Positions 10,133-37,935 of a stretch of DNA of 37,935 nt are shown here, one piece after another. Below the pieces are notes generated by a model. It searched no databases and was not told the DNA's origin. It worked only from the letters and a program-made list of their open reading frames with translations. The stretch's first letter is position 1, and every line of letters begins with the position of its first letter. Source of the stretch: a virus (taxonomy: Duplodnaviria; Heunggongvirae; Uroviricota; Caudoviricetes); the IMG/VR virus record IMGVR_UViG_2909298281_000006, positions 1 through 37,935 of that record; one strand, given 5' to 3'. Made by a program: the position numbers and the translations under genes.

Positions 10133-10142
10133 GTACCTGTCC

Positions 10143-14850: not shown

Positions 14851-15004
14851 TGCTCCCCCTGAGTAATTACAGGAAGATTACCCGCGCGCGAAACCGTTCT
14901 CCTTAACCCCCTGTTCTGACTGTTTTCTTACAACAAAAGCCCTTTGTATCAGCCTGTTACGCTTTGCCATCATGACTGAAGAACCAGTCAGAGGGGCAAA
15001 AACT

Positions 15005-21489: not shown

Positions 21490-21836
21490 CAACCCGCTAC
21501 ACAGGAATGAATCCGGACGGAACGGGAAACCTGAACGATATGGAGCACCTGAAACAGTCAGTCAGGGACATCCTGACCACCCCGCTGGCAAGCCGGGTTA
21601 TGCGACGGGAATATGGCAGCCTTGTGCCCGATTTAATTGACGAACCCATGAATAACACCACACGTCTGCAATGCATGAGTGCTGCCGTGATTGCGCTGAC
21701 ACGATGGGAACCCCGCATTGCCCTGGATGCCATCGACGTTGTCTGGAAGGCAGGAGGCCGCGCCAGGGTGACGCTGTCGGGTACTGTCATGCAGACCATG
21801 CAGAATGTTGAATTAACCATCACGCTGAGAGAGTAA
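21486..21836 (+). CDS. W: Baseplate protein W (gp25-like)
   Basis: 116 aa; position between V and J. Confidence 0.85.
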   Translation: MTTRYTGMNPDGTGNLNDMEHLKQSVRDILTTPLASRVMRREYGSLVPDLIDEPMNNTTRLQCMSAAVIALTRWEPRIALDAIDVVWKAGGRARVTLSGTVMQTMQNVELTITLRE

Positions 21837-21839
21837 ATC

Positions 21840-22736: not shown

Positions 22737-23259
22737 TTCGCTGTTACCACCATCAGCCAGCAATTTCATGCGTTGCGCCGAAGCTGTCGGAGCGCGCATT
22801 ACAAACATCCCGGTAGACCTCAACACACTGTGGTCACCAGATACCTGCCCGGTGCATCTGCTGCCTTATCTCGCCTGGGCATTTTCCGTTGACCGCTGGG
22901 ATCGCAACTGGCCGGAAGAGACAAAGCGACAGGTTATTCGTGATGCATGGCTGATACACCGACACAAAGGGACCATCAGCGCACTGCGCCGGGCCATTGA
23001 GCCGCTGGGATACCTCATTCGCGTGTCTGAGTGGTGGGAGTTCGGCGGAGAACCGGGAACATTTACCGTTGAAGTCGGCACGCTGGACAGTGGCGTGACG
23101 GAGGAAATGTATCTGGAAATGGAGCGGTTGATTGCTGATGCCCGCCCGGTCAGCCGCCACATGACAGGGCTGAATATCATTCAGGAAATTCCGGGGGATA
23201 TTTTCGCAGCGGCGGCAACTTATGACGGTGAAGTCATTACCATTTATCCGGACGATTAA
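22729..23259 (+). CDS. I: Baseplate/tail protein I
   Basis: ATG 22729 overlaps the J stop (ATGAGTAA); 176 aa. Confidence 0.8.
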
Positions 23260-23261
23260 GC

Positions 23262-25811
23262 ATGAGTACCACAACACGTAAATTTAAAACCGTTATCACC
23301 GATACGGGTGCAAAAAAATTAGCTCAGGCAGCCGCGCCAGATGGTAAGCCTGTCCGCCTGACTCATATGGCCGTGGGCGACGGTGGCGGCACGTTGCCCA
23401 CACCAGACAGTAAGCAGACCCGTCTGGTGCATGAGGTGTGGCGACATACTGTTAATCGCGTCATCCTGGACGCAACACATCAGAACCGCATTATTGCGGA
23501 GCTGGTTATTCCTCCTGAAACGGGCGGATTCTGGATCCGGGAAATTGGTGTATTTGATGAGCACGGCGATTTAATCGCGGTGGGCAATACTGCCGAAAGT
23601 TACAAGCCAGCCGTTGCCGAAGGGTCCGGTCGTGCACAAACATTTCGCACCATTCTGACCGTATCCAGCACTGCCACCGTGGCGCTTACCGTGGATAACA
23701 CCATGGTGATGGCCACAGTGGATTACGTGGATGACAAACTGAAAGAGCATGAACAGTCACGACGTCACCCGGACGCCTCGCTGACCGCAAAAGGCTTTGT
23801 TCAACTCAGTAGCGCCACTAACAGCGTGTCTGAAACGCAGGCTGCAACGCCGAAAGCAGTAAAGGCCGCGTATGATCTTGCTAACGGTAAATATACTGCG
23901 CAGGATGCCACCACAGCGCGAAAAGGCCTTGTCCAGCTCAGTAGCGCCACCAACAGCACGTCTGAAACGCTGGCGGCAACGCCAAAGGCAGTAAAATCAG
24001 CCTATGACAATGCAGAGAAACGTCTGCAGAAAGACCAGAACGGCGCTGATATACCCGATAAGGGACGCTTCCTGAACAACATTAACGCGGTCAGTAAAAC
24101 AGACTTTGCTGATAAGCGTGGTATGCGTTATGTGCGGGTTAACGCTCCTGCAGGTGCAACATCTGGAAAATATTACCCTGTTGTTGTTATGCGTTCTGCT
24201 GGCTCAGTAAGCGAACTGGCATCAAGGGTCATTATCACCACGGCAACGCGAACCGCAGGCGATCCGATGAATAACTGCGAGTTTAACGGATTTGTTATGC
24301 CTGGTGGCTGGACTGACAGGGGGCGTTATGCTTATGGAATGTTCTGGCAATATCAAAACAATGAACGAGCCATCCACTCAATAATGATGAGTAATAAGGG
24401 CGATGATTTGCGCTCTGTGTTCTATGTTGATGGCGCTGCTTTCCCTGTTTTTGCGTTTATCGAAGATGGCCTGTCAATATCCGCACCTGGTACTGATCTC
24501 GTTGTTAATGATACGACCTATAAGTTTGGGGCAACAAATCCGGCGACTGAATGTATCGCGGCGGACGTTATCCTTGATTTTAAGAGTGGGCGTGGTTTTT
24601 ATGAGTCTCATTCGTTAATCGTTAACGATAACTTGTCGTGCAAAAAACTTTTTGCCACAGACGAAATTGTAGCGCGTGGTGGTAATCAGATTCGAATGAT
24701 AGGTGGGGAGTATGGGGCATTATGGCGTAATGATGGCGCTAAAACTTACCTGCTGCTTACCAATCAAGGTGATGTTTATGGTGGCTGGAATACATTAAGA
24801 CCGTTTGCTATTGATAACGCAACCGGCGAACTGGTTATTGGAACCAAACTGTCCGCAAGTCTGAACGGTAATGCATTAACAGCAACAAAGCTGCAAACGC
24901 CAAGACGGGTTTCTGGTGTTGAGTTTGATGGTTCCAAAGATATTACTTTAACCGCCGCGCATGTGGCTGCTTTTGCCAGAAGGGCAACGGATACATATGC
25001 CGATGCGGATGGTGGCGTTCCCTGGAATGCCGAATCAGGCGCTTATAATGTCACCCGCTCTGGCGACAGCTATATTCTGGTTAACTTCTATACCGGAGTC
25101 GGAAGTTGCCGGACCTTGCAGATGAAGGCGCATTACAGAAATGGTGGTCTGTTCTACCGTTCTTCAAGAGACGGTTATGGTTTTGAGGAAGACTGGGCAG
25201 AAATTTATACCTCGAAAAGTCTTCCACCGGAAAGCTACCCAGTCGGCGCACCAATCCCGTGGCCATCAGATACCGTTCCGTCTCGTTATGTCCTGATGCA
25301 GGGGCAGACTTTTGACAAATCTGCCTACCCGAAACTTGCAGTGGCTTATCCGTCAGGCGTTATTCCTGATATGCGTGGCTGGACGATTAAGGGCAAGCCC
25401 GCCAGTGGTCGTGCCGTATTGTCTCAGGAACAGGACGGCATTAAATCGCACACCCACAGCGCCAGCGCATCCAGTACTAATTTGGGGACGAAAACCACAT
25501 CGTCGTTTGATTACGGAACTAAATCCACAAATAACACCGGAGCACATACACACAACTTTGCTTACAACAATACTTCAGCATACGCAGAAACTCCCGGTAC
25601 CGGTGGTGGAATGCATGCAAGTAACACAAGCAAGACAGCAAGTAATCGTGTATTAAGCGCAGGAGCTCATGCTCACACAGTAGCAATAGGTGCGCATACA
25701 CATACGCTCGCTATTGGTTCGCATACACACACCATTACCATTGCCGCTTATGGCAACGCGGAAAACACCGTAAAAAACATCGCATTTAACTATATTGTGA
25801 GGCTTGCATAA
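23262..25811 (+). CDS. H: Tail fibre protein H
   Basis: 849 aa; two copies of [24 protein letters not shown]; C-terminal tail-collar-like PDMRG segment and HTH-triplet His-rich tip. Confidence 0.85.
23793..24007 (+). repeat. Two ~83-bp direct repeats (period 132 bp) inside H encoding the tail-fibre repeat
   Basis: Read directly: 23793-23875 and 23925-24007 are highly similar. Confidence 0.6.
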
Positions 25812-26410
25812 TGGCATTCAGAATGAGTGAACAACCACGAACCATAAAAATTTATAATCTGCTGGCCGGAACCAATGAATTTATTGGTGAAGGTGATACA
25901 TACATTCCACCTCATACAGGTCTACCTGCAAATAGTACTGATATTGCTCCGCCAGATATTCCAGCTGGCTTCGTGGCTATTTTCAACAGTGATGAGGCGT
26001 CCTGGCATCTCGTTGAAGATCATCGTGGTAAAACGGTTTATGACGTGGCTTCCGGCGACGCGTTATTTATTTCTGAACTGGGTCCGTTACCGGAAAATGT
26101 TACCTGGTTGTCGCCGGAAGGGGAATATCAGAAGTGGAACGGCATAGCCTGGGTGAAGGATACGGAAGCAGAAAAACTGTTCCGGAAACGGGAGGCGGAA
26201 GAAACAAAAAACAGCCTCATGCAGGTAGCCAGTGAGCATATTGCGCCGCTTCAGGATGCTGCAGATCTGGAAATTGCAACGGAGGAAGAAATCTCGTTGC
26301 TGGAAGCATGGAAAAAGTATCGGGTATTGCTGAACCGTGTTGATACATCAAGTGCACCGGATATTGAGTGGCCTGCTTCCCCAGTGGAATCAAGGAGTAA
26401 ACAAGCATAA
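25811..26410 (+). CDS. G: Tail fibre assembly chaperone
   Basis: 199 aa immediately after H with ATGA-type overlap; typical tail fibre assembly protein position. Confidence 0.8.
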
Positions 26411-26503
26411 GGCTTTCATTTCAAACCATTGTAGTCCAGTTTTTTGTATAGTACCCTGCTCATTTCGAATGACATGAGTGATTTGGAATTTCAGGGTGCC
26501 ATT

Positions 26504-27682
26504 ATGAATGTTATTTCATCATTAAAACAGCTTAACAGACAGCGAAATATTAAAACAAAAAAGATAAAGACGAAGGCCAGACTGGCATTTCTAAAAATGC
26601 GATACAGAAGGAAAACATCATTACAGCCGGATAGTTATAAAACAGTGTGCATTTTCATGCACATGCAGGCCATTGGTGACGGCATCGTTACCTCAGGGTT
26701 TATTAAACAACTTCAAGAATCCGGCATGGTGGTATATGTGATAGCACCTCCAAGAGTATCATTCCTCTTTACTGATATTGTTGGCGTGGATGCCTTTATT
26801 TCTTACGAGAAAAATAAATTTAACGAACTAAAAGCAAAGATAAAAAAACTGAATGTAGATCTTGTTGTTGACTTCTCAAATTTTGATAACACAGCGATAA
26901 CCAGATTGCAAACACTACATTTACTTAAACCTAAACACTCTATCTGTTTTAATCATCCTGCCGTAACTATTTTTGATACAAATATAATCGATAATCGTTC
27001 CATTCACTCATCTGAAAGAATGAAAAAAGTTTTATCTTTACTAAAGATAAAAAATAATGATTACGCTGCAGCGCTTAATTTTGACAACAAAATATATGAA
27101 CCAGCAAATATTGTTGCAAATGAATTCAGGAAGAAAAACAAAAAATTAGTTATATTTAACCCTTATGGCTCTCAGAATAGCAGAACCTTGTCTGATGAAC
27201 AGATAAACAAAGTACTAGCTTACCTTAACAACCTTAAGGGATATCACACAATAGTTTTTAACATGGGAAAACAGATTAATCACAATGGATTGGATAATGT
27301 GTCTCTATCTCCATTTTCTGATGCAGGATGTTCATTTGCATTGGTTCGCCATGCTGATTTTGTTATAACTGTAGATACTGCTATTGTACATTTAGCCAGT
27401 GCATTAAACATTAGACAATACTGTATATATAATAACAGAATGCATGAAGGAAAATTCGAAAATAATATAGTGTGGGGGCCAAACAGCAAATTAGCGACTC
27501 AACTCACCACATCCGAACATCTAAGGTCTGAAGGGGGCGACGATATGCATAAATTCGACATAATGCTTTTAATTAATGCTATCAAACAAGATTTGACAAA
27601 CGATATACCGAATTACCACTCGGATTTAGGTTGTAAAAATAGCTCCAGAAACCCAGAATTAGAAAGTAGCAAATCTTTATAA
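26504..27682 (+). CDS. Glycosyltransferase family 9-like (heptosyltransferase-like) cargo gene
   Basis: Track ORF starts at TTG 26444; ATG 26504 preferred. AIGDGIVTSGFIKQL and VDTAIVHLASALN resemble GT9 N- and C-terminal motifs (WaaC/WaaF-like D-S-G-x-x-HLAAAL); AT-rich. Confidence 0.65.
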   Translation: MNVISSLKQLNRQRNIKTKKIKTKARLAFLKMRYRRKTSLQPDSYKTVCIFMHMQAIGDGIVTSGFIKQLQESGMVVYVIAPPRVSFLFTDIVGVDAFISYEKNKFNELKAKIKKLNVDLVVDFSNFDNTAITRLQTLHLLKPKHSICFNHPAVTIFDTNIIDNRSIHSSERMKKVLSLLKIKNNDYAAALNFDNKIYEPANIVANEFRKKNKKLVIFNPYGSQNSRTLSDEQINKVLAYLNNLKGYHTIVFNMGKQINHNGLDNVSLSPFSDAGCSFALVRHADFVITVDTAIVHLASALNIRQYCIYNNRMHEGKFENNIVWGPNSKLATQLTTSEHLRSEGGDDMHKFDIMLLINAIKQDLTNDIPNYHSDLGCKNSSRNPELESSKSL

Positions 27683-27735
27683 CGTAGAAACCTCAACTGT
27701 TTTATCAGGACCTACGATATATTATATAACAACAA

Positions 27736-27769
27736 GCCGCCCATTACCCAATATGAGGGTATTGGCGGC
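27736..27769. terminator. Hairpin between convergent GT9 gene and U
   Basis: GCCGCCCATTACCC-AATATGA-GGGTATTGGCGGC imperfect inverted repeat. Confidence 0.4.
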
Positions 27770-27778
27770 AATATAAAA

Positions 27779-28273
27779 TCAGAACAGCCCTTTAACTGAA
27801 CTGGCCGCGCTGTTAAGAGATGATGTCACCTTATCTTTGAAGCCGGACAACATATCGCTGAACGATGAGGATTGCAGGCGCTCCCGCAAATCCTCATCAC
27901 AGCGTTCAAGAGTCAGTGAAAATTCTATCTTTTTCGCCTTACCGTAGCGATCAAACTCGGAACGGGTCGTATTCGTTTCAGTCAGCACATACATGCCGTA
28001 AATCTGCCCGACACCATCAATCAGAGGCCAGGGGCGTCCTGTATACGCCTGCGTGGTCAGCAGCGACAGGGACACTTCGCCACCTGTAATTTCAGGATAA
28101 AGCACACCAGAAAGAACGATGCGATCATCACCTGCACCGATATACTGCCAGCTTGCTGAACGGTTAACGCGTTCATTTTTCACATGCCGCCAGCTTTTGT
28201 TTTGCTGTAACTGTTGATGCGGCAATGTACGCAGCTCAAAAACAAACATGCCATAGATCATCATCATGGCCAT
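27779..28273 (-). CDS. U: Tail protein U
   Basis: 164 aa; similarity to remembered P2 gpU; downstream of T on the same strand. Confidence 0.8.
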   Translation of the reverse strand: MAMMMIYGMFVFELRTLPHQQLQQNKSWRHVKNERVNRSASWQYIGAGDDRIVLSGVLYPEITGGEVSLSLLTTQAYTGRPWPLIDGVGQIYGMYVLTETNTTRSEFDRYGKAKKIEFSLTLERCDEDLRERLQSSSFSDMLSGFKDKVTSSLNSAASSVKGLF

Positions 28274-28279
28274 GACTCC

Positions 28280-31096
28280 TCAATCTTTATCGTAAAAACT
28301 GCCACGTCCGGCACGGGCGCGCCGTTCCATCTCTGCCCTGACCATTTCGCCGACCAGTTTCGCCAGTTCGCGGGGATTCTGTGTAACAACGTTATGCAGA
28401 TGAACATGAATTTCACCACCAAATCCGGAGGCAACAGGCTCCCGGTTACGGGAAGTTACAGGAACTGATGCCACTGGAGATCGTATAGCCTCCGCCACCG
28501 GGCGGGAGCTGGCCGCAACAACAGGGACCAGCGCCGGAGGCAGCGGAGCCGGGACCACGGGTGTGATATTAATTGCGGGGGCAGGCTTACTGACCTGCGC
28601 AATCTTCCGCTCCTGCCACTCCCCACGAACAGCAAGTGCTCGGGGCAGGTTTTTAAAGACAATATCGCCGGGGCCAATGCGTTTTTTCGTCTCCTCAACC
28701 AGCTTACCTGTGTTATCAGCAATTTTGCTGAGTCTGCGCAGCGTACCGGTATTGCTGTCTGTGAGCGGTTTATTGTCTTTGGGGTTATCACCTCCGGTGC
28801 CATTGCCATTTTCCACAGGCTTCGGCGGATTGATTTTCGCCAGGTCCCCCTGAAGCAAGGCAACCTTGTCCTGAAGAATGGCCGCACGCTGTGCGTCTTC
28901 GATTTTCTTGCGCGCCCTTTCCGCTTCATCCGGAAGCACACCAAGCTTTTCAAGTATCCACGCCAGCGTATCCAGCAACATTTTTGCAGGTGTCAGAACA
29001 AGTTGTAACGCACCGCCAAGAACGTTACCGAATATCTCGCCAGCACTGGTACATTTATCCAGAGTTTCCTTGCTGGACTCCATCGGTGACAGCAGCGATT
29101 TAAACCAGTTAAACATCTGGCTGATCCCACTCCCGATTGCGTCAAAAACAGGACCAAACCGTTCAAAGGTTTCGCGCAACGGGGTCAGCCTTTCCATAAT
29201 CCCGCTGAACACCCCGGCAAAAAATGCCCTGATGGGATCCCAGTATTTCCAGATAAGAACGGCAGCTCCGGCAAGCGCAGCCACGATAAGACCAACCGGA
29301 CTGAACAGCGCCCCGATAGCGCCTCCCAGTAAAGAAACGGAACCCGTCACCATTCCCCATAGTGCTGGCAGAACCCTGACAGCATTCATTGATCCGGTCA
29401 GGAGGGAAAAACCAAGACGCAGTTTTGCCAGCGGGCCAGCAAGCACACCAATAGCCAACGACAACGAGCCGACCGTTGCAGTCATCGCCAGCAATGCCCC
29501 ACCTGCAATCAGTAGCTGGCGCGTCAGTGCCGGATGGGCCTGCGCCAGCGCCGTCACCTTTGATACCACCCGCGTGAGCCACTGCGTGACAGAACGCAGC
29601 GGACCGTCAATCAGATCTGCAATGCGGATGCGCAACCCTTCCCATGCACTGCCGAGTGATTTCAGATCGCCGTCAAGGTTGTTGGCCATAACCTTTGCTG
29701 TGCGTTCAGCCTCACCGCGCGCGCCTTCAAGTTCTTTTCTCAGTTTGGGTAAGGAGCCGTCACCCGCTGCATCAACGAGCGCCATAAACGATGTGAAAGC
29801 CTCTTCTCCGGCAATGTCCTTAAAGAACGATACCCGGTCAACTTCCCCGTATTTGCGGGTGGCTTTATAAAGGTCGGCCAGTACATCCTCCATCGGGCGC
29901 ATTTTGCCGTTCGCGTCAGAGACAGCCACACCCAGCTCTTTCAGCGCCTCTGCTGCCGCCTTTGGCGGTGATGCCAGACGAGCCAGGCTGGCACGCATTG
30001 CCGTCCCGGCATCACTCCCTCTGATGCCCATATTTGCCAGCACGCCCGCCATCGCAGCGGCCTGCTCCAGCGATATTCCCAGCTTACCCGCCACCGGACC
30101 TGCATATTTCATGGTTTCGCCCAGCGCGCGAAGGTCAGTGTTGGTACGGGTAAACGCCGCTGTAAGCGTGTCGCCAACCCGGTCCATCTGGTCAGCAGAG
30201 AGGCCGAACTGCGTCAGGATATTTGAGCCAATATCCGCCGTCTCGCCGAGATCCATACCGCCAGCCGTTGCCATGCTCAGCACGCCGGGAAGCGCAGCCT
30301 GAATGGCCTGCGGAGTAAAACCAGCCATTGCAAGAAATGCCTGTCCACTGGCGGCATCTCCAGCGGTGAACTGCGTTTCAGAGCCAAGTTTTAACGCCTG
30401 CTCACGCAGCGCCTTAAACTGTGGGCTGTTTTTGTCGATTCGCGTCAGTGCCTGAACGCGGGACATCTCTTTCCCGAACCCAATCGCGGGCTGCAAAAAA
30501 CGCCCGGCAGCATAGCCGCCCGCCGCTGCCGCACCTGTTGCCAGTGCACCACCTGTTTTCAGTTTTCCCGCGGTTTCCTGCGCGCGCGAATACCGCTCAC
30601 GCGCCCGCGTTACACGCGCAAGCGCCTGCCGTTCGCGTTCAAGCTGGTTGTTGTACTGTTCGGTGCGTCTGATGGCCTGTTGAATGGTGTTATCGCTGCC
30701 TGTCAGGGAAATGCCGTGGCGTTTCAGCTCTCCGCCAAGTTCCCGCATTTTCTGAATCTCCCGTGTGCGCGATTCATTCAGGCGTTCAAGCCGGGTGCTT
30801 AACTGCTGCATCAGCTTTTGTTGTTTTTCGCTGAGCACTGTACCCGTGTGTTGTAACTGATTAAGGGCGTTAAGCTGGCGTCGTGCTTTCAATATGCCAG
30901 CATCCGCTTTACTGACAGCGTCACGGGCGCGCTCAAATGAACGCGCCTGACGCTCGAGATTTTTGATCGCCCCCTGCGTTCGCTGGATGGAGTCACCAAA
31001 CTGCCCCATCAGGCGGCGGGCGTTTTCGGCAGGCCGGGTCAGCCTGTCAACGGCGCTGAAAGCGACCCGGATATCAAGAGTCTTCATTATCTGCAT
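28280..31096 (-). CDS. T: Tail tape measure protein
   Basis: 938 aa, Ala/Gly-rich with coiled-coil-like N-terminal half; position after E/E-prime. Confidence 0.85.
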   Translation of the reverse strand: MQIMKTLDIRVAFSAVDRLTRPAENARRLMGQFGDSIQRTQGAIKNLERQARSFERARDAVSKADAGILKARRQLNALNQLQHTGTVLSEKQQKLMQQLSTRLERLNESRTREIQKMRELGGELKRHGISLTGSDNTIQQAIRRTEQYNNQLERERQALARVTRARERYSRAQETAGKLKTGGALATGAAAAGGYAAGRFLQPAIGFGKEMSRVQALTRIDKNSPQFKALREQALKLGSETQFTAGDAASGQAFLAMAGFTPQAIQAALPGVLSMATAGGMDLGETADIGSNILTQFGLSADQMDRVGDTLTAAFTRTNTDLRALGETMKYAGPVAGKLGISLEQAAAMAGVLANMGIRGSDAGTAMRASLARLASPPKAAAEALKELGVAVSDANGKMRPMEDVLADLYKATRKYGEVDRVSFFKDIAGEEAFTSFMALVDAAGDGSLPKLRKELEGARGEAERTAKVMANNLDGDLKSLGSAWEGLRIRIADLIDGPLRSVTQWLTRVVSKVTALAQAHPALTRQLLIAGGALLAMTATVGSLSLAIGVLAGPLAKLRLGFSLLTGSMNAVRVLPALWGMVTGSVSLLGGAIGALFSPVGLIVAALAGAAVLIWKYWDPIRAFFAGVFSGIMERLTPLRETFERFGPVFDAIGSGISQMFNWFKSLLSPMESSKETLDKCTSAGEIFGNVLGGALQLVLTPAKMLLDTLAWILEKLGVLPDEAERARKKIEDAQRAAILQDKVALLQGDLAKINPPKPVENGNGTGGDNPKDNKPLTDSNTGTLRRLSKIADNTGKLVEETKKRIGPGDIVFKNLPRALAVRGEWQERKIAQVSKPAPAINITPVVPAPLPPALVPVVAASSRPVAEAIRSPVASVPVTSRNREPVASGFGGEIHVHLHNVVTQNPRELAKLVGEMVRAEMERRARAGRGSFYDKD

Positions 31097-31310
31097 TCCC
31101 GCTGCGAAGTGCCGCCCGCTCGCGCCAGCTAACCACTTCGCCGGGCGTCATCATGAAGATTTCGGCGGGCGACCAGTTAAAAATGGCGGCAATATCCGCC
31201 ACCAGATCTTCGATGTGCTCAAAGCACACCAGGGTGATTACGCTGCCGTCTCCTGCACGCTCTTCGCGCCAGAGTCTGGCTCGCTCATAAAATTTACAGC
31301 CACAGCGCAC
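31074..31310 (-). CDS. E-prime frame: C-terminal extension of the tail assembly chaperone, reached by -1 frameshift from E
   Basis: ORF in the -1 frame overlapping the E 3-prime end and the T 5-prime end; no independent ATG/SD. Confidence 0.55.
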   Translation of the reverse strand: MRCGCKFYERARLWREERAGDGSVITLVCFEHIEDLVADIAAIFNWSPAEIFMMTPGEVVSWRERAALRSGNADNEDS

Positions 31311-31612
31311 AACTGAATAAAATCGCGTGACGACATTTTTTTAATCATCACTTCATCCAGTCGTGGCGAGGTCACGCGAGGCAACAGCGTAAACATGGTA
31401 TCCGCTTTCAGATTCAGCACATCAGACAGCGACAGACCACGCAGGGATCCAGCCTGCTCAATAGCCCCGGTGATCTCCACATACGTGATTTTTTCGCCAC
31501 CACGCTCAATTGGTCGGGTCAGTTTTACGCCATGTTCGACAGCCATATCCTCACCTGCCGTCACATCATCCGCCACGGTGTTATTCCGGGTTTCAGTATC
31601 GATGTCTTTCAT
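31238..31612 (-). CDS. E: Tail assembly chaperone E
   Basis: 124 aa with a good SD (AAAGGAGAAAACTG ATG); position between FII and T. Confidence 0.7.
   Translation of the reverse strand: MKDIDTETRNNTVADDVTAGEDMAVEHGVKLTRPIERGGEKITYVEITGAIEQAGSLRGLSLSDVLNLKADTMFTLLPRVTSPRLDEVMIKKMSSRDFIQLCAVAVNFMSEPDSGAKSVQETAA
31289..31295 (-). other. Candidate -1 programmed frameshift heptamer A_AAU_UUU
   Basis: On the minus strand AAATTTT sits in the E frame as A AAT TTT and reads AAA TTT T in the E-prime frame, inside the E/E-prime overlap. Confidence 0.45.
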
Positions 31613-31667
31613 CAGTTTTCTCCTTTTCAGTCAGAGGCGACGCACTGCGCCGCCTGCATATTACTTA

Positions 31668-32180
31668 TCAGCCAAGCTCGAGCGCGGAACGGATACGGTC
31701 AGGCACAATGTCCTTGCCGTCCTTCCGGTAAATGAAGTTCAGCAGGTCAATCTCCCACAACGGGCGATCGTTAACACTCAGCTTGTAGTAGGTGTTTTTA
31801 ATGGCGTAAGTGTGTGATGTGGCTTCGCCCTGTTTGGCTTCCCCCATATCAATTTCCGTCACACGTCCGCGCATTGCGACTTCATACAGGTCGCTTTCTG
31901 CATCGGTGTAGTATTCACCCGCAAAACGCAGCAGCGTGCCGTCAATCGTGCCGCCATACTTAAGGAACAGCTCACGAACTGCGCCCCCCATGACAAAGCT
32001 CGCATCAAGCGCGGAGTCGTCCAGACCGAGATCAATACTTACCGCACCCATCATGCCACCACCCCGGTAGCTGTCGGTTTTGCGCGTCAGCTTAGGTAGA
32101 GTGACGGACGTCACCTTACCCACTTCGTTTTCACCATCCACAAACAGCGTAAAAAAGCGAAGATGTTTTGGTACAGCCAT
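31668..32180 (-). CDS. FII: Tail tube protein
   Basis: 170 aa; follows the sheath gene with a 1-nt overlap. Confidence 0.85.
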   Translation of the reverse strand: MAVPKHLRFFTLFVDGENEVGKVTSVTLPKLTRKTDSYRGGGMMGAVSIDLGLDDSALDASFVMGGAVRELFLKYGGTIDGTLLRFAGEYYTDAESDLYEVAMRGRVTEIDMGEAKQGEATSHTYAIKNTYYKLSVNDRPLWEIDLLNFIYRKDGKDIVPDRIRSALELG

Positions 32181-33364
32181 CAGGCACCTCCCAGCACCGC
32201 AAATGCGGGACCAAAGAATTCATCAGTAAACGACTGGTAAAGCTCCATGTCTTCCAGCGGGGGAACGGGCGTATATTTGTAGCGAATACGCACGCGCCCC
32301 TGACGTAAATTCGTGGTGCCGTTATCCACCACGTCATACCAGCACGACGCCCCAATCAGTTTCCCGGCAGTAACCAGTGAATCCAGTTTTGCCCTGATGG
32401 CACTGATAACATCCTTCACGTTCGCAGGCGTCAGTGGACTGTCGATGGTTTCAAACTGCGCTTCCGCAATTGAATCAGCCAGCACCTGTGCGGTTCGGGT
32501 ATACACCTCAAAGATGTAGGCGTTCGTTTCCGGTGTGCGGTTGCCCCAGAAGCGGAACCCGTTGCGACGAATAATGGTCGTGATTTCTTTGTTGTTGAGG
32601 CTGTTGGCATCACTGTCTTCGGCCTGCAACGACCAGAACACATGCCTGGACATCCCCAGCACATTTTTAACCGGAACGTTGGACAGCGATTTGTGCCAGC
32701 CCTGTTCATGGTCAATGTACGCACGAAGGCCGCACGCATAGGCAGGCGCGGGGAACGTTTCGTTTTTGCCACTTTTCGGGTTGTAGGCGATGAAGTCCGG
32801 CCATAAGAGCATCACCTCACGTTCGTTGAATTTCTGGCGGTAGGTAATCGCCTCAGCCATCGTGTTACAGCCGTGACATGAGGCATACACAAACGCGCGC
32901 AGTTTACCTGCAATCACGCACAGGGATTTTGTTACAGCCTCCGTGTCCAGCTCCGGCGCGGCCAGAATACGCGGACGGTATCCGATGCTTTCATCCTGCT
33001 CTGCAACAAGCAGCGCATACATCCCCGTATAGCTGCCGTCATCCTCAGAACCACCGATAACCAGTTGATCCTGCGTCTTTCCGTCTTCTTCTTTGTGTTC
33101 AGCCACGCGAACGACGATCACCTTTGTGCTCACCTGGTCTGCGATGGCCTTAAGCGCACGATAAAGCGTCCCCGTTGTTCCGCATTTTCCCAGCACGTCA
33201 TTGACGCGGGTCAGCAGTGTGGGCTTGTTCAGCGGGAACAGCTTCGCGTCCGCATCATCCGCCGTTGCCACGATACCGATAACGCTGGAATCAACATCGT
33301 TAATCGCTGTTACCAGGTCGGTATTTTCCGTAACACGGGCACCATGAAAACGAGTTTCACTCAT
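32180..33364 (-). CDS. FI: Contractile tail sheath protein
   Basis: 394 aa; FPLNKP, GWHK, IRRNGFRFWGNRT and YKYTPVPPLE match remembered P2 gpFI. Confidence 0.9.
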   Translation of the reverse strand: MSETRFHGARVTENTDLVTAINDVDSSVIGIVATADDADAKLFPLNKPTLLTRVNDVLGKCGTTGTLYRALKAIADQVSTKVIVVRVAEHKEEDGKTQDQLVIGGSEDDGSYTGMYALLVAEQDESIGYRPRILAAPELDTEAVTKSLCVIAGKLRAFVYASCHGCNTMAEAITYRQKFNEREVMLLWPDFIAYNPKSGKNETFPAPAYACGLRAYIDHEQGWHKSLSNVPVKNVLGMSRHVFWSLQAEDSDANSLNNKEITTIIRRNGFRFWGNRTPETNAYIFEVYTRTAQVLADSIAEAQFETIDSPLTPANVKDVISAIRAKLDSLVTAGKLIGASCWYDVVDNGTTNLRQGRVRIRYKYTPVPPLEDMELYQSFTDEFFGPAFAVLGGA

Positions 33365-33520
33365 AGCTTCAGCCCCTTGTATCCGTTAAATGATTCGGCA
33401 ACAATCATCACCCACCACGCGCGTAATCTCACCCCTGCGCCGTTCTCCCGACCCGGCGACAACAAAAAGCAGTAACCCCCTCCGCACGCACATGCGACCA
33501 TGCCGCACAGGGAGGGAAAG

Positions 33521-34630
33521 ATGACCGACACCACCATGCAATTGCTCAGTCAGAGCACAGACCCCGTGAAAATGCCGGATTTTGATATTCTCGCGGAGGG
33601 TAAAACGCTGTCAGGCGTGGCAGAGCGCCTGATGAGCCTGTCACTGACCGACAACCGGGGATTTGAAGCGGACCAGCTCACCATCACGCTGGATGATGCG
33701 GATGGTCAGTTGCAGCTACCGCCACGGGGCGCGCGCCTGACGGTTCTCATTGGCTGGAAAGGCGAACCGCTGACAGAAAAAGGCTCTTACATTGTCGATG
33801 AAATCGCACACGAAGGACCGCCGGACAGGCTGACTGTTTCAGCCAGAAGCGCAGATTTTCGGGATGAATTTAACGTTAAACGTGAGGTGTCCTGGCATGA
33901 TGTGACCGTTGAGCGTGTGGTATCCGCCATCGCTCATCGGTACGGTCTGAAACCGCAAATCAGCGAAATGCTGATGCATATCGAAATCGACCACGCCGAC
34001 CAGACCGAAGAAAGTGACATGTCCTTCCTTACGCGCATGGCGGAAATGCTGGGCGCAATCACCACGGTAAAAAGCGGTAATCTGTTATTCATCATGCCCG
34101 GCGGTGGCGTGAACGCACAGGGCCAGCCGTTGCCATCGTTCGCCATCACACGCAGCAGCGGCGATCGCCATCAGTTCCGCATTGCTGACCGCGAGGCGTA
34201 TACGGGGGTACGCGCTTACTGGCTTGATCTTAATTACGGGAAAAAGAAAAAAGTCAGCGTGAAACGCCGCAAACCGCCAAAACCGAAAAAAGAGAAAAGC
34301 AGCAGCCGTGAAGGTGATTATATGGAAGGCGCGGAAGGCAATGTGTTTGTGTTACGCAAGACTTATCAGAACGAGCAGGCAGCAAGACGCGCAGCGGCGG
34401 CAAAGTGGCAACAACTACAACGCGGAGCCGCATCATTCTCCATCACACTGGCACGCGGACGCGCAGGACTCTACCCCGAAATGCATGGCACGGTAACAGG
34501 ATTTAAAAGCGAGATTGATAATCAGGACTGGATTATTGCAAAAGCCGAGCACACCATTGATAACAGCGGCTTTACCACTCAGCTTGAGCTTGAAGCAAAA
34601 ATCCCGGAATGGATAGCGGAAACAGAGTGA
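33521..34630 (+). CDS. D: Tail protein D (late control D family)
   Basis: ATG 33521 after GGAGGG; RGFEAD, EGPPDRLT, SADFR, SWHD, GDRHQF, GDY and ASFSITLA motifs match remembered P2 gpD. Confidence 0.85.
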   Translation: MTDTTMQLLSQSTDPVKMPDFDILAEGKTLSGVAERLMSLSLTDNRGFEADQLTITLDDADGQLQLPPRGARLTVLIGWKGEPLTEKGSYIVDEIAHEGPPDRLTVSARSADFRDEFNVKREVSWHDVTVERVVSAIAHRYGLKPQISEMLMHIEIDHADQTEESDMSFLTRMAEMLGAITTVKSGNLLFIMPGGGVNAQGQPLPSFAITRSSGDRHQFRIADREAYTGVRAYWLDLNYGKKKKVSVKRRKPPKPKKEKSSSREGDYMEGAEGNVFVLRKTYQNEQAARRAAAAKWQQLQRGAASFSITLARGRAGLYPEMHGTVTGFKSEIDNQDWIIAKAEHTIDNSGFTTQLELEAKIPEWIAETE

Positions 34631-34672
34631 GCAACTTAGAATAGCGACAGCACCACGTTAAGGGAGGTCGCT

Positions 34673-34933
34673 ATGTTCCGTTGTCCGCTTTGTGGCGCAT
34701 CTGCCCGTATCCGCACCAGTCGTCCGGAAAATGATTCAAACACCGTGCGGCAAAAGTATTACCAGTGTAACAATCTGGAATGCGGCGTATGCTTCTCAAC
34801 ACTGGAAGCTTTCCATAAATTCACATCAAAACACGCCTCCGGCGTTCACTCTTCAGAAGATATCCCGTGGCATGATCTGCCAGCTTCACACAGGGGAAAC
34901 AATCAGATGAGTTTGCCTTTATCTCAGAATTAA
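34673..34933 (+). CDS. ogr: Late gene transcriptional activator, zinc-finger Ogr/Delta family
   Basis: MFRCPLCGASARIRTSR...YYQCNNLECGVCF resembles P2 Ogr (MFHCPLC...HQCQNVNC); AGGGAGG SD. Confidence 0.85.
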   Translation: MFRCPLCGASARIRTSRPENDSNTVRQKYYQCNNLECGVCFSTLEAFHKFTSKHASGVHSSEDIPWHDLPASHRGNNQMSLPLSQN

Positions 34934-34993
34934 CAGGCAGAATTGCCGGAGTAACAAAAAAGCGATAGATTACGCGCGGGTGCCTTTCGGCTG

Positions 34994-35206
34994 ATGGTCG
35001 GAGGGAATACCCGAAGGCCAGATGTGGAAAGGCCCCGGAAAACATCCCTGTTTAACCGAGGCCCTAACCGCATTACCTTGACAAGTGAAAGGTTAGCGCC
35101 TCTCCGAAAAAGGAGCAAGTGCTATGTCGCAAAAATCGCTTACGGCCATCACGTTCTGCGTGACGGCAATCCTCATCATCTGGATGCTGCACGGTTCGCT
35201 GTGTGA
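34994..35206 (+). CDS. mok-like overlapping reading frame (70 codons) upstream of and overlapping the hok-like gene
   Basis: ATG 34994; 70-codon ORF ending inside the hok-like gene in another frame, mirroring the mok/hok arrangement. Confidence 0.3.
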   Translation: MVGGNTRRPDVERPRKTSLFNRGPNRITLTSERLAPLRKRSKCYVAKIAYGHHVLRDGNPHHLDAARFAV

Positions 35207-35263: not shown

Positions 35264-35441
35264 AGGAAACCGCGACGGGGAGCAATCCCCCGGTCAATCA
35301 GTTGCCAGAGTAAGGTCGATAAGGCATCCTGTCTCATTCTATACCAGCTAATCAATTGACACATATCAATAAAAAGCCTGATAAAATCAAAATGTTTTGT
35401 TACAAATGTCAGCTAGTAGAGAGCCAAAGGAGGCAGATTAT

Positions 35442-35774
35442 ATGGCATTAATCAAATGTCCTGAATGCCAGAAAGAGGTGATCGATTCAGTATTGTCTTG
35501 CCCTGCTTGTGGCAAACAACTGAAAAAACTTAAACGTTCATTTTTTGGAGAACTCATTAAGTATTTTTTCATATTATTTAATATTTTTATAATCTACACG
35601 ATTTGTGTTGGGCTAAGAGAGGTTGGTGAAATAATAAACAACGCCACATCCGATGCCGAAAAAGCCGGTACAGTTATTGGTACGGGCTTAGGTTTAATTG
35701 CTATTGGAGGCTTATGGGTTATTGGCAATATCATTATCGGAAATTTAGTATTTCTTACTAAACCAAAGGGATAA
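35442..35774 (+). CDS. Zinc-ribbon membrane protein (110 aa)
   Basis: ATG 35442 after AAAGGAGG; CPEC...CPACG zinc ribbon followed by two hydrophobic helices; AT-rich. Confidence 0.55.
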   Translation: MALIKCPECQKEVIDSVLSCPACGKQLKKLKRSFFGELIKYFFILFNIFIIYTICVGLREVGEIINNATSDAEKAGTVIGTGLGLIAIGGLWVIGNIIIGNLVFLTKPKG

Positions 35775-35778
35775 CAAA

Positions 35779-36672
35779 ATGAAAAATATGATTATTTCTA
35801 TAGGTGCATCATTTATATCAATTAGTGTGCTACCTGCTCACGCAGCAACTGAGCATAATAACTTTAAGTCATCACTCCAGTGCCGAGCAATAGAAAATAA
35901 TAAAGAAAGACTTTCTTGTTATGATAAGTCAATACAACCGACTCGAACGACAGTTGCTGAAAAATTCGAAAGCAGAGATCAATGCCCTGATGAGAAAGAT
36001 GATGACAGACGTTTATCTTGTTATGACCGTTTTTTTTCTCCAACATTTACTCCGCCTGTAAGCTCAAAATCTAAATCGAAACAGCTAGTAACAACAGAGG
36101 CTCAGCAACCAAATCTTTCTGAGATATCTAAATGCCGAGCAGAAACCGATAAAGAAACTAGAGTAAACTGCTACGATAAACTATTTCCACAGGAAAAAGT
36201 TGCGCAATCTAAATCAAAATTAGAGAAAGCCACAGACACAGGAAAATGGCACACATCCATTACTACATCGCCAATTGATGATTCGAAAAATGTAATTTTA
36301 TCGTTAGAAAGTGATGATTATATAAGAACTCCATTTGGAGAAGCGGTTACCCCTACTCTGTTTATAGCTTGCCGAGAAAAGAAAACCGAAGTATTTCTTA
36401 ATTGGGATGTATATTTAGGCCTTGAACAAACCAGCATGCTGTATCGCCTTGATAAACAGAAAGCAGTTGAGCGAAACTGGCTAGTATCTACAGATACAAA
36501 GGCTGTTTTTTATAAAGGCAATGACATTAACTTCATCAGAAAACTAGCCAACTCAAACAAAATGTATGCAAAAATAACCCCTTATAATGAAAGCCCTGTA
36601 AGTGCAACTTTCAATTTAAACGGCCTGTCAACCACGCTAAAACCGCTTCAAGAAGCCTGTAACTGGAAATAG
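35779..36672 (+). CDS. Secreted protein with three Cys-containing repeats
   Basis: Signal peptide MKNMIISIGASFISISVLPAHA; three repeats C-x7/8-R-[LV]-x-C-Y-D-[KR] (RLSCYDK, RLSCYDR, RVNCYDK); AT-rich. Confidence 0.6.
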   Translation: MKNMIISIGASFISISVLPAHAATEHNNFKSSLQCRAIENNKERLSCYDKSIQPTRTTVAEKFESRDQCPDEKDDDRRLSCYDRFFSPTFTPPVSSKSKSKQLVTTEAQQPNLSEISKCRAETDKETRVNCYDKLFPQEKVAQSKSKLEKATDTGKWHTSITTSPIDDSKNVILSLESDDYIRTPFGEAVTPTLFIACREKKTEVFLNWDVYLGLEQTSMLYRLDKQKAVERNWLVSTDTKAVFYKGNDINFIRKLANSNKMYAKITPYNESPVSATFNLNGLSTTLKPLQEACNWK

Positions 36673-36701
36673 TATAAACCATGCGGCTAAGCCACAATCA
36701 C

Positions 36702-36741
36702 AGATAACACAAAGCCCGTGAAAACGGGCTTTGTGTTATCT
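36702..36741. terminator. Perfect 17-bp-stem hairpin after the secreted-protein gene
   Basis: AGATAACACAAAGCCCG-TGAAAA-CGGGCTTTGTGTTATCT. Confidence 0.5.
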
Positions 36742-36754
36742 ATAACTCGAAAAT

Positions 36755-36772
36755 GTGGTCACTGCGTGGACA
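36755..36772. repeat. Right copy of the 18-bp direct repeat GTGGTCACTGCGTGGACA (partner at 11..28)
   Basis: 17 of 18 identical to 11..28; its reverse-strand reading ...VHAVTTFSSYR-stop mimics the Int C-terminus ...VHAVSTGD-stop. Confidence 0.5.
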
Positions 36773-36939
36773 TGCGCCGATACAAATCCTTTTATATCAA
36801 AAAGTTAAATCAACATCTTTTTCATCAACAAGGATTTTCACGTTTGTGTTACCTGTATGAGACGAGAGTTAACCGGACAAGTGTGCCATAATCTCGCGGC
36901 CAGGCATACTTGCGAAGATTTCAGGTATAAGGATACGTA

Positions 36940-37935
36940 ATGATACAACCTATTTCCGGCCCTCCTCCTGGGCAACCACCAGGTCAGGGAGATAACCTGC
37001 CGTCTGGCGCGGGCAATCAGCCTTTATCCAGTCAGCAACGTACTTCGCTGGAAAGCTTAATGACGAAAGTGACCTCACTGACGCAACAGCAAAGAGCAGA
37101 ACTGTGGGCGGGTATCAGGCACGATATTGGTCTGTCGGGAGATTCACCGCTGCTTTCGCGTCACTTCCCTGCCGCTGAGCATAACCTGGCGCAACGTCTG
37201 CTGGCCGCGCAAAAAAGCCATTCTGCCCGCCAGCTTTTAGCGCAATTAGGGGAGTATTTACGTCTGGGGAATAATCGTCAGGCGGTCACGGATTATATCC
37301 GTCATAACTTTGGTCAGACGCCGCTGAATCAGCTCTCACCGGAGCAATTAAAAACCATTCTCACCCTGTTGCAGGAAGGGAAGATGGTTATTCCGCAACC
37401 ACAGCAGCGCGAGGCGACCGACCGTCCTTTATTACCGGCGGAGCACAATGCGCTAAAACAGCTGGTGACCAAACTTGCGGCGGCAACGGGGGAACCCAGC
37501 AAACAGATCTGGCAATCGATGCTGGAACTTTCCGGGGTGAAAGATGGCGAGTTAATTCCAGCGAAACTGTTTAACCATCTGGTGACCTGGCTACAGGCGC
37601 GTCAGACGCTAAGCCAGCAAAATACGCCGACGCTGGAATCACTACAGATGACGCTAAAACAACCTTTAGATGCCAGTGAACTGGCGGCGTTATCGGCATA
37701 TATCCAGCAAAAATATGGTCTTTCTGCGCAATCATCGCTTTCTTCTGCCCAGGCCGAGGATATTCTTAATCAGCTTTATCAACGGCGGGTTAAAGGGATT
37801 GATCCGCGTGTTATGCAACCGCTGCTTAATCCTTTTCCACCGATGATGGACACGTTGCAAAATATGGCAACGCGTCCCGCGCTGTGGATACTGTTAGTCG
37901 CGATTATCCTGATGCTGGTCTGGCTGGTTCGTTAA
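36940..37935 (+). CDS. Hypothetical tail-anchored membrane protein (Pro/Gln-rich N-terminus, C-terminal TM), probably host flank
   Basis: 331 aa; MIQPISGPPPGQPPGQ...; C-terminal TM ALWILLVAIILMLVWLV; AAGGA SD; window ends exactly at its stop. Confidence 0.6.
   Translation: MIQPISGPPPGQPPGQGDNLPSGAGNQPLSSQQRTSLESLMTKVTSLTQQQRAELWAGIRHDIGLSGDSPLLSRHFPAAEHNLAQRLLAAQKSHSARQLLAQLGEYLRLGNNRQAVTDYIRHNFGQTPLNQLSPEQLKTILTLLQEGKMVIPQPQQREATDRPLLPAEHNALKQLVTKLAAATGEPSKQIWQSMLELSGVKDGELIPAKLFNHLVTWLQARQTLSQQNTPTLESLQMTLKQPLDASELAALSAYIQQKYGLSAQSSLSSAQAEDILNQLYQRRVKGIDPRVMQPLLNPFPPMMDTLQNMATRPALWILLVAIILMLVWLVR

What the first reader, a model, noticed from the sequence alone, without database searches (positions are those of the whole stretch)
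27683..33520. Tail sheath-tube-tape measure block (FI-FII-E-T-U) lies on the opposite strand to V-W-J-I-H-G and D
In canonical P2 as I recall it, FI, FII, E, T, U and D are one rightward operon on the same strand as V to G. Here FI to U read leftward while D and ogr read rightward, so FI and D are divergent (156-bp gap, 33365-33520) and U converges on the GT9 gene across a hairpin. The boundaries look like a proper promoter region and a terminator, with no long inverted repeats, so this is probably a stable lineage-specific rearrangement. It means D needs its own promoter and the cargo slot is bounded by G and U.
Basis: partly seen in the sequence, partly recalled or inferred. Interest (0 to 1): 0.35.

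Follow-up and report, generated by a model that had tools for sequence, protein, structure and literature searches.

The report
Inverted tail-gene block in P88-type prophage
The tail sheath-to-U genes of this P2-like prophage really do sit on the opposite strand from the P2 layout, but this is the fixed, normal arrangement of the common P88-type phage lineage, and one activator site between FI and D probably drives both genes.

Summary
U, T, E/E', FII and FI (27779-33364) read leftward. V-G, D (33521-34630) and ogr (34673-34933) read rightward. P2, 186, Fels-2 and phiCTX have all of them on one strand.

It is neither an assembly error nor a flipping segment. The FI|D junction is intact in 1,356 of 5,426 complete E. 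coli genomes. A synthetic collinear U-D junction is found in none. All 80 close viral contigs agree. Phage P88 (Xuanwuvirus, about 96% identical) is annotated the same way.

Across species, 51 of 80 D-containing loci carry the inversion and 29 keep the P2 order. The 51 have D at 61% identity or more and span over 20 genera of Enterobacterales.

The 156-bp FI|D gap holds one Ogr-type dyad, TCT-N12-ACA at 33444-33461. Its centre lies 88.5 nt from the FI ATG here, and 82.5 nt in P2 PF and most inverted relatives. A -10-like hexamer starts exactly 35 nt out on both sides. The D-side hexamer is specific to the inverted clade.

I infer a second bidirectional late promoter like P2's PP/PO. PV appears lost, because S overlaps V.

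This is ordinary for the lineage. The promoter logic is inferred, not shown.

The parts
27736..27769 (-). Hairpin 10 nt downstream of the U stop codon. The stem is GCCGCC..ACCC / GGGU..GGCGGC, followed by UUGUUGUU on the U strand. It is the likely terminator of the leftward FI-U operon. It belongs to the GT9 cargo insert, not to the conserved backbone.
   Evidence: Fold (centroid hairpin -20.4 kcal/mol; z-score of the 96-nt piece only -0.86). Homology with P88-type phages starts at 27776.
27779..28273 (-). gpU tail protein gene, the last gene of the inverted block.
   Evidence: Pfam Phage_P2_GpU 5.5e-39. 46% identical to P2 U.
28280..31096 (-). gpT tape measure gene (938 aa).
   Evidence: Pfam PhageMin_Tail 2.3e-58. 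33% identical to P2 T.
31074..31310 (-). E' reading frame, which overlaps the 3' end of E. It is the presumed frameshift extension that gives E+E', as in P2.
   Evidence: Pfam Phage_P2_GpE 2.1e-12. P2 annotation of E+E'. The slippery site was not identified.
31238..31612 (-). gpE tail assembly chaperone gene.
   Evidence: Pfam Phage_TAC_7, weak at 4.8e-4. 35% identical to P2 E.
31668..32180 (-). gpFII tail tube gene.
   Evidence: Pfam Phage_tube 8.6e-46.
32180..33364 (-). gpFI tail sheath gene, the first gene of the leftward operon.
   Evidence: Pfam sheath domains. 45% identical to P2 FI.
33404..33409 (-). -10-like hexamer GATGAT for the leftward FI promoter (PF). It starts 35 nt from the dyad. 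The predicted transcription start is about 33394-33397.
   Evidence: NANNAT at k=35 in 39/41 unique inverted loci and 14/14 P2-type loci. The same spacing holds in the mapped P2 PF and PO promoters.
33444..33461 (.). Single Ogr-type dyad TCTCCCGACCCGGCGACA (TCT-N12-ACA, one mismatch from TGT-N12-ACA), centred at 33452.5. The centre lies 88.5 nt from the FI ATG and 68.5 nt from the D ATG.
   Evidence: Consensus taken from PMC3931495. The P2 PF dyad centre is 82.5 nt from the FI ATG.
33496..33501 (+). -10-like hexamer GACCAT for the inferred rightward D promoter. It starts 35 nt from the dyad. The predicted transcription start is about 33507-33510, just before the Shine-Dalgarno sequence GGGAGGG (33510-33516).
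   Evidence: NANNAT at k=35 in 30/41 unique inverted loci (33/41 within k=34-37), against 1/14 within k=34-37 on the equivalent far side of P2-type loci.
33521..34630 (+). gpD (tail hub / late control D) gene, separated from U by the inversion.
   Evidence: Pfam Phage_GPD 7.3e-18. 48% identical to P2 D.
34673..34933 (+). ogr-type late activator gene (86 aa, CX2C-X24-CX4C), 42 bp downstream of D.
   Evidence: Pfam Ogr_Delta 5.1e-14. 38% identical to P2 Ogr.
14915..14932 (.). The matching dyad in the P|O intergenic region, TCTGACTGTTTTCTTACA. It shares GTTCT-N12-ACAACAAAA with the FI|D site and also has -10-like hexamers on both sides. It serves as the comparison site for the same regulon.
   Evidence: The same pair of sites is found in P88.
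26444..27682 (+). GT9-like glycosyltransferase cargo gene (GC about 33%) in the variable slot between G and U.
   Evidence: Pfam Glyco_transf_9 3.7e-6. Composition. The G-GT9-U junction is intact in 46 E. coli genomes.

Best explanation
The window is a P88-type (Xuanwuvirus-like) member of the P2 family (Peduoviridae). In an ancestor of a large Enterobacterales-infecting clade, the segment carrying the PF late promoter and FI-FII-E/E'-T-U was inverted. D and ogr stayed in place.

The inversion is fixed in that clade. It is not an artefact and not a switch.

The inversion placed the PF activator site back-to-back with D. The FI|D gap now appears to work as a second bidirectional late promoter, built like P2's PP/PO. 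One symmetric Ogr-binding dyad (TCT-N12-ACA, centre 33452.5) sits about 55 nt upstream of two divergent start sites. Each start site has a -10-like hexamer 35 nt from the dyad and no -35 element.

Leftward, the promoter would give the FI-U transcript, which ends at the hairpin after U. Rightward, it would give D, and probably ogr by read-through.

Because S overlaps V here, the P2 PV promoter is probably absent. The late regulon would then be PP, PO (O through G), PF and a new PD, served by two activator sites instead of three.

Shown: the gene order, its fixation and phylogenetic spread, and the conserved dyad and hexamers. Inferred: Ogr binding, the start sites, and Ogr dependence of D.
For: The collinear order is seen in P2, 186, Fels-2 and the outgroup phiCTX. 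The collinear state is therefore ancestral.

The inverted order is annotated in P88 and in phiT5282H. P88-type phages match window 27776-35000 as one piece at 94-97% identity.

The FI|D junction is intact in 1,356 of 5,426 complete E. coli genomes. The synthetic collinear U-D junction is found in 0 of 1,419 genomes that carry these genes. All 80 IMG/VR relatives show the inverted order.

In one-genome-per-species contigs, 51 loci with D at 61% identity or more are inverted, and 29 loci with D at 54% or less are collinear.

Dyad evidence:
- Exactly one T[GC]T-N12-ACA was found in the gap of 42 of 51 sequences scored by script (41 loci plus the window). Most of the rest are visible by eye.
- The dyad centre is mostly 82.5 nt from the FI ATG in the inverted clade, the same distance as in P2 PF.
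- NANNAT starts exactly 35 nt from the dyad on the FI side in 39/41 unique loci and on the D side in 30/41. In collinear loci it is 14/14 on the FI side, and only 1/14 has one (within k=34-37) on the far side.
- The mapped P2 start sites lie 47-50 nt beyond the dyad, and one site is annotated as serving both pP and pO.

GTTCT-N12-ACAACAAAA occurs exactly at only two places in the window, the P|O and FI|D gaps. These are the only intergenic sites with a dyad plus -10-like hexamers on both sides, and the same holds in P88.

In phiT5282H both sites change together to GGTCTGGCC...CGACAACAAAA.

An Ogr-family activator is encoded next to D. P88 is inducible and phiSM is spontaneously active, so the layout is functional (PMC6456863).
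Against: There is no transcript or binding data.

The window's dyad has TCT rather than the consensus TGT. The strict consensus TGT-N12-ACA is absent from both gaps.

The motif GTTCT-N12-ACAACAAAA was derived from the two sites it then 'finds', so its chance estimate is partly circular.

The loci are phylogenetically related. Conserved positions overstate independent support.

The D-side hexamer is weaker, GATCCT, in one subgroup that includes phiT5282H. It is missing at k=34-37 in 8 of 41 loci.

The predicted D leader is only about 12-14 nt in this window.

The 'clade' is defined by D identity bands, not by a rooted tree.
Confidence: 0.75

Rival explanations
1. D is transcribed from its own promoter in the FI|D gap, or inside the 5' end of FI, and this promoter does not depend on the shared dyad or on Ogr. 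The conserved GC-rich block and hexamer on the D side would then serve another factor or only a sigma-70 promoter.
For: D must have a promoter somewhere in or near the gap, because FI is on the other strand. The D-side block CGCGCGCG..TGAAAnnAT is conserved as a unit and could be a separate element. The D-side hexamer is less regular than the FI-side hexamer (30/41 versus 39/41).
Against: The generic sigma-70 scan found no promoter-like site in the gap facing D. There is no -35-like hexamer upstream of GACCAT. The hexamer sits at exactly the same distance from the dyad as in mapped Ogr-dependent promoters. gpD is a late structural protein in P2 and is expressed from PF.
Confidence: 0.2
2. The block is a site-specific invertible (phase-variable) segment, like the Gin/Cin/Hin tail-fibre switches found next to it in P88. 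The window would then show only one of two orientations.
For: P88 carries a DNA invertase gene directly beside U. Tail-fibre segments in related loci do flip (PMC13280938).
Against: No inverted repeats lie at the block boundaries. There is no invertase gene in this window. 1,356 genomes have the FI|D junction and none has the alternative junction. The orientation is constant across 51 species-level loci with diverged sequences.
Confidence: 0.01
3. The orientation is an assembly or scaffolding error in this contig.
For: None beyond the departure from the P2 map.
Against: The same junctions occur in more than 1,300 independently finished genomes, in isolated phage genomes (P88, phiSM, P884B11) and in 80 viral contigs.
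Confidence: 0.01
4. The divergent arrangement is ancestral, and the collinear P2 operon arose later by the reverse inversion.
For: An inversion is symmetric, and no rooted tree was built here.
Against: The collinear order is found in the more distant and more diverse relatives: 29 loci with lower D identity, plus P2, 186, Fels-2 and Pseudomonas phiCTX. From general knowledge, not tested here, R-type pyocin clusters are also collinear. In collinear loci U and D overlap or abut, as in a long-standing operon.
Confidence: 0.04

Closest known systems
Escherichia phage P88 (Xuanwuvirus P88, NC_026014), with Citrobacter phage phiSM and Xuanwuvirus P884B11
   Same: They are 94-97% identical over U-T-E-FII-FI-D-ogr as one collinear piece and about 95% identical over most of the rest. 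Gene order and strands are identical, with a 157-bp FI|D gap. The same two dyad sites are present. S overlaps V.
   Different: The slot between G and U holds an invertase plus an alternative fibre cassette in P88, and a low-GC GT9 glycosyltransferase here. Other cargo regions also differ (8995-11618, and downstream of ogr). The C-terminal part of the fibre gene H and gene G are lambdoid-like here.
Bacteriophage P2 late gene organisation (PP, PO, PV, PF; F operon FI-FII-E-E'-T-U-D)
   Same: All genes have homologues at 33-73% amino-acid identity. An Ogr-family activator is encoded. The dyad lies 88.5 nt upstream of the FI ATG in this window, and 82.5 nt, as in P2, in most inverted relatives. 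The -10 spacing is the same. The PP/PO bidirectional architecture with one activator site is conserved.
   Different: FI-U is inverted relative to V-G and D. D is uncoupled from U and has its own ribosome-binding site and an inferred promoter. No PV gap exists because S and V overlap. The dyad half-site is TCT, not TGT. Ogr has a 24-residue rather than a 22-residue spacer between its cysteine pairs.
P2 PP/PO divergent late promoter pair
   Same: One symmetric activator site lies midway between two divergent genes. The start sites are (P2) or would be (here) about 55 nt from the dyad centre on each side. Each side has a -10-like hexamer 35 nt beyond the dyad and no -35 element.
   Different: In P2 this architecture is mapped experimentally for P and O. 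Here it is only inferred for FI and D. The flanking sequences of the D and P halves show no clear homology.
Enterobacter phage phiT5282H (Novemvirus) and Klebsiella Kp48xx prophage-derived phages
   Same: They show the same inverted FI-U block with a divergent D. The dyad is TCT-N12-ACAACAAAA in both the P|O and FI|D gaps.
   Different: DNA identity is only about 67-71%. The D-side hexamer is the weaker GATCCT.

Membership tests
P2-like (Peduoviridae) contractile tail module | Homologues of FI (sheath), FII (tube), E/E' (chaperone pair), T (tape measure), U and D are present together. | tested here: met
   Pfam hits. tblastn against P2 proteins gives 33-48% identity.
P2-like (Peduoviridae) contractile tail module | E' reading frame overlaps the end of E (programmed frameshift product E+E'). 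| tested here: inconclusive
   An overlapping ORF at 31074-31310 hits Pfam Phage_P2_GpE. No slippery heptamer was identified in the sequence.
Canonical P2 F operon (FI-FII-E-T-U-D on one strand, the same strand as V-G) | FI through D are collinear and co-transcribed from PF. | tested here: not met
   FI-U are on the - strand, while D and V-G are on the + strand. P2, 186, Fels-2 and phiCTX are collinear.
Xuanwuvirus (P88-like phages) | Same gene order and strands as P88, including the inverted FI-U block and the S/V overlap. | tested here: met
   P88 annotation. Single-piece alignments at 96% identity.
Xuanwuvirus (P88-like phages) | Genus-level nucleotide similarity over the whole genome (ICTV uses about 70%). 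| tested here: inconclusive
   Coverage of 76-79% at 95-96% identity for the two query pieces gives roughly 73-76%. No formal intergenomic distance was computed.
Ogr/Delta-dependent late promoter | Dyad TGT-N12-ACA centred about 55 nt upstream of the start site. | tested here: inconclusive
   The window has TCT-N12-ACA, one mismatch from the consensus. The strict pattern is absent. More distant members of the inverted clade have perfect TGT-N12-ACA at the same position. The start site is not mapped.
Ogr/Delta-dependent late promoter | -10-like element at fixed spacing from the dyad, without a -35 element. | tested here: met
   GATGAT (FI side) and GACCAT (D side) both start 35 nt from the dyad. 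No sigma-70 consensus promoter was found in the gap.
Ogr/Delta-dependent late promoter | A cognate Ogr-family zinc-finger activator is encoded by the phage. | tested here: met
   The ORF at 34673-34933 hits Pfam Ogr_Delta at 5.1e-14.
Ogr/Delta-dependent late promoter | Transcription depends on the activator, which contacts the RNA polymerase alpha subunit. | not testable with these tools
   This needs reporter or in vitro transcription assays.
Site-specific invertible DNA segment (Gin/Cin/Hin type) | Inverted crossover repeats at both ends, an adjacent invertase gene, and both orientations present in populations. | tested here: not met
   No boundary inverted repeats. No invertase gene in the window. 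1,356 genomes show this orientation and 0 show the other.

The most novel reading that the evidence does not exclude
The inversion rewired the P2 late regulon. It turned the one-way PF promoter into a second two-way, Ogr-dependent promoter that now also drives D, and by read-through ogr, which would give positive feedback. At the same time the PV promoter was lost by fusion of the O and V operons. The clade would thus run four late transcription units from two activator sites instead of three. This would be a natural case of a symmetric class I activator site being co-opted in the opposite direction after a rearrangement. I found no description of it in the literature searches I ran.
Probability: 0.55. 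Interest if true: 0.35.

Novelty: already known. Interest (0 to 1): 0.22.

Why it matters
The result mostly matters as a clarification. A departure from the textbook P2 map that looks like a rearrangement or misassembly is in fact the standard layout of one of the commonest E. coli prophage types. About a quarter of complete E. coli genomes carry it, and so do relatives across Enterobacterales. Annotators and prophage-boundary tools should expect it.

There is a modest biological point. The lineage offers a natural experiment in promoter evolution. A single symmetric Ogr site seems to have been reused to drive a gene that was stranded by the inversion. The same lineage appears to have dropped the PV promoter.

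The layout also places the variable or cargo slot between two converging late operons. This may matter for how cargo genes such as the GT9 glycosyltransferase are insulated or expressed.

Tried and rejected
- The strict TGT-N12-ACA search gave five matches in the window, fewer than the chance expectation of 8.9, and none in the P|O or FI|D gaps. The sites became visible only after allowing TCT and comparing relatives.
- The generic sigma-70 and terminator scan was uninformative. Promoter-like hits were at chance level, and the U-side hairpin was not picked up as a terminator.
- The 34692-34910 frame first taken for ogr is wrong. It gave no Pfam hit and a non-Ogr translation.
- I tested whether the D-side half of the promoter was copied from the P- or O-side half. 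Ungapped identities anchored on the dyad are 11-16 of 50, which is background. There is no evidence for duplication. The T52_D row in that table was offset by one base.
- Literature searches turned up no explicit description of the inversion. I searched for P88, Xuanwuvirus, P2-like plus inverted plus late promoter, and Peduoviridae plus inversion plus synteny, and I checked the P88 paper, the P2-like diversity paper, the C. rodentium prophage paper and a Xenorhabdus tailocin paper. The xnp1 paper was not held.
- Start-codon calling by script failed or mis-set the gap in six loci (L115, L123, L126, L128, L129, L132). Their dyads are visible by eye.
- PADLOC and Pfam gave nothing for the low-GC three-gene cassette at 8995-11618.
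Full report
**What is in the window**

- On the minus strand: U (27779-28273), T (28280-31096), E (31238-31612) with an overlapping E' frame (31074-31310, Pfam Phage_P2_GpE), FII (31668-32180) and FI (32180-33364).
- On the plus strand: V, W, J, I, H and G (20908-26410), a low-GC GT9-like glycosyltransferase (26444-27682), D (ATG at 33521 after GGGAGGG, through 34630) and ogr.
- ogr is the 86-aa ORF at 34673-34933 (Pfam Ogr_Delta 5e-14; 38% identical to P2 Ogr). The overlapping 34692 frame is not ogr.
- tblastn with P2 proteins finds every tail gene at 33-73% identity in these orientations.

The FI|D gap is 156 bp, as stated. A hairpin at 27736-27769 follows the U stop codon and is followed by UUGUUGUU on the U strand. 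It is a plausible but unremarkable terminator. It lies in the cargo insert rather than in the conserved backbone, because homology with relatives starts at 27776. No inverted repeats flank the block.

**Comparison with P2 and relatives**

The annotated P2 record has FI, FII, E, E', T, U, D and ogr on the same strand as V-G, with U and D abutting. The same holds for 186, Fels-2 and the Pseudomonas outgroup phiCTX.

The window differs by an inversion of exactly the segment from the PF promoter through U.

**It is the normal layout of a known lineage**

Megablast against phage genomes shows that window 27776-35000 aligns as one piece at 94-97% identity to Citrobacter phage phiSM, Xuanwuvirus P884B11, Escherichia phage P88 and others. 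Most of 1-24000 aligns to the same phages at about 95%.

The P88 RefSeq annotation shows the identical order and strands: G+, cargo, U-, T-, E'-, E-, FII-, FI-, D+. Its FI|D gap is 157 bp. P88 is inducible and phiSM is spontaneously active (PMC6456863), so the layout is functional.

**Not an artefact and not a switch**

- A 1,051-bp probe across the FI|D junction is intact in 1,356 of 5,426 complete E. coli genomes.
- A synthetic probe that joins the U gene to the D gene in the P2 orientation is covered as one place in 0 of the 1,419 genomes that contain the two halves.
- All 80 near-identical IMG/VR contigs that reach far enough show FI- next to D+.
- The G-GT9-U junction is present in 46 genomes.

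**Phylogenetic spread**

I scanned one genome per species with an alignment of D proteins. I then mapped the tail genes in each 21-kb locus by local tblastn.
- 51 loci are inverted (V+..G+ U- T- E- FII- FI- D+ ogr+). Their D is 61-98% identical to the window's D.
- These loci come from Salmonella, Edwardsiella, Serratia, Erwinia, Pantoea, Enterobacter, Kosakonia, Klebsiella, Citrobacter, Pectobacterium, Brenneria, Xenorhabdus, Photorhabdus, Providencia, Morganella, Yersinia, Hafnia and others.
- 29 loci keep the P2 order. Their D is at most about 54% identical.

The split is clean. Enterobacter phage phiT5282H (genus Novemvirus) and a set of Klebsiella phages also carry the inversion.

This is a single old event by parsimony, although I did not build a rooted tree.

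**How D is probably expressed**

P2 late promoters carry the dyad TGT-N12-ACA (PMC3931495). In the P2 record a single activator site is annotated as serving both pP and pO. Reading the P2 sequence, the dyad centre lies 55.5 nt from each of those two start sites and 56.5-58.5 nt from the PF start. The PF dyad centre is 82.5 nt from the FI ATG.

The strict pattern is absent from the window's gaps. One mismatch away, however, TCT-N12-ACA occurs at 33444-33461 in the FI|D gap and at 14915-14932 in the P|O gap. The two sites share GTTCT-N12-ACAACAAAA exactly, and this pattern occurs nowhere else in the window without mismatches. That motif was derived from these two sites, so the statistic is partly circular.

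Across the inverted loci:
- The script found exactly one T[GC]T-N12-ACA in the gap of 42 of 51 sequences scored (41 loci plus the window). The more distant members (Xenorhabdus, Photorhabdus, Dryocola, Hafnia) have perfect TGT-N12-ACA.
- Its centre is 78.5-88.5 nt from the FI ATG, mostly 82.5 nt. This matches P2 and the collinear loci, which give 79.5-83.5 nt.

So PF moved with FI.

I anchored 41 unique sequences on the dyad. A NANNAT hexamer then starts exactly 35 nt out on the FI side in 39 of 41 and on the D side in 30 of 41 (33 of 41 within one or two nt). Background elsewhere is 4-8%. In collinear loci the FI side has it in 14 of 14, and only 1 of 14 has one within k=34-37 on the far side.

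In the window the hexamers are GATGAT (33404-33409, minus strand) and GACCAT (33496-33501). By analogy with the mapped P2 starts, 47-50 nt beyond the dyad, the predicted starts are about 33394-33397 for FI and about 33507-33510 for D. The latter lies just ahead of the D ribosome-binding site.

Window-wide, the only intergenic places with a dyad and -10-like hexamers on both sides are the P|O and FI|D gaps. The same two sites are found in P88. In phiT5282H both sites change together to GGTCTGGCC..CGACAACAAAA. This is what one expects if the same protein reads both sites.

I therefore infer that the FI|D gap is a second bidirectional Ogr-dependent late promoter. This remains an inference. There are no transcript or binding data. 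The sequences are related, so the counts are not independent. A subgroup also has a weaker D-side hexamer, GATCCT.

**Related changes**

S (20267-20911) overlaps V (20908-), as in P88. P2, 186 and Fels-2 instead have a gap there, annotated in P2 as carrying PV. No dyad lies between S and V. The lineage probably runs O through G as one operon.

The slot between G and U is variable. The gap is 59 bp to more than 4 kb in relatives. It holds an invertase and fibre cassette in P88 and the GT9 gene here. It corresponds to the P2 Z/fun slot, but it now lies between converging operons.

**Verdict**

The feature is the ordinary, already sequenced and annotated layout of the P88/Xuanwuvirus lineage and its wider clade, so its novelty is low. 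The only modestly new element is the inferred regulatory rewiring, in which one dyad drives both FI and D and PV is lost. I did not find this described in the papers I could search.

Noticed in passing
window 8995-11618 (- strand): A low-GC (33-37%) three-gene cassette (269, 114 and 491 aa) lies between the replication genes and the portal gene. This is the position of tin/old in P2. It has no Pfam or PADLOC hit. It is a candidate uncharacterised cargo or defence cassette in a known P2 hotspot.
   Followed up: partly
window 23931-26410: The C-terminal part of tail fibre gene H is 99% identical to side tail fibre genes of lambdoid phages such as mEp332 and PhiR34_1. Gene G is about 94% identical to lambda tfa. 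The receptor-binding module has been swapped between P2-like and lambdoid phages.
   Followed up: no
window 20267-20911 / 20908-21489: S overlaps V by 4 nt, and no Ogr-type dyad lies between them. The PV promoter of P2 and 186 is probably absent, and O through G would form one late operon.
   Followed up: partly
window 6203-8350 and 8347-8949: The gpA-type replication endonuclease is one 940-aa gene in P88. Here it appears as two overlapping ORFs of 715 and 200 aa. This could be a frameshift, meaning a defective prophage or a sequencing error, or a genuinely different gene structure.
   Followed up: no
window 35397-37935: Downstream of ogr there is a low-GC stretch. It holds a zinc-ribbon protein (125 aa), a protein with a T6SS VasI domain (297 aa, Pfam 3.4e-24) and a further 331-aa ORF that runs to the window end. 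None has a PADLOC hit. It could be phage cargo or host flank beyond attR.
   Followed up: partly
L085 (NZ_JBQPOM010000071.1, 'Vagococcus sp. WN89Y'): A contig labelled as a Firmicute (Vagococcus) carries a P88-type prophage whose D protein is 98% identical to the window's D. This is most likely contamination or a mislabelled assembly.
   Followed up: no
window 26444-27682: The GT9-like glycosyltransferase cargo (GC about 33%) starts 33 bp after G with no terminator in between. It may be read through from the late operon. The same insert is found in only 46 of about 1,400 E. coli genomes with this prophage type.
   Followed up: partly
window 34673-34933: The Ogr homologue has a CX2C-X24-CX4C cysteine spacing, whereas P2 has CX2C-X22-CX4C. 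It also has a longer C-terminal tail (86 versus 72 aa).
   Followed up: no
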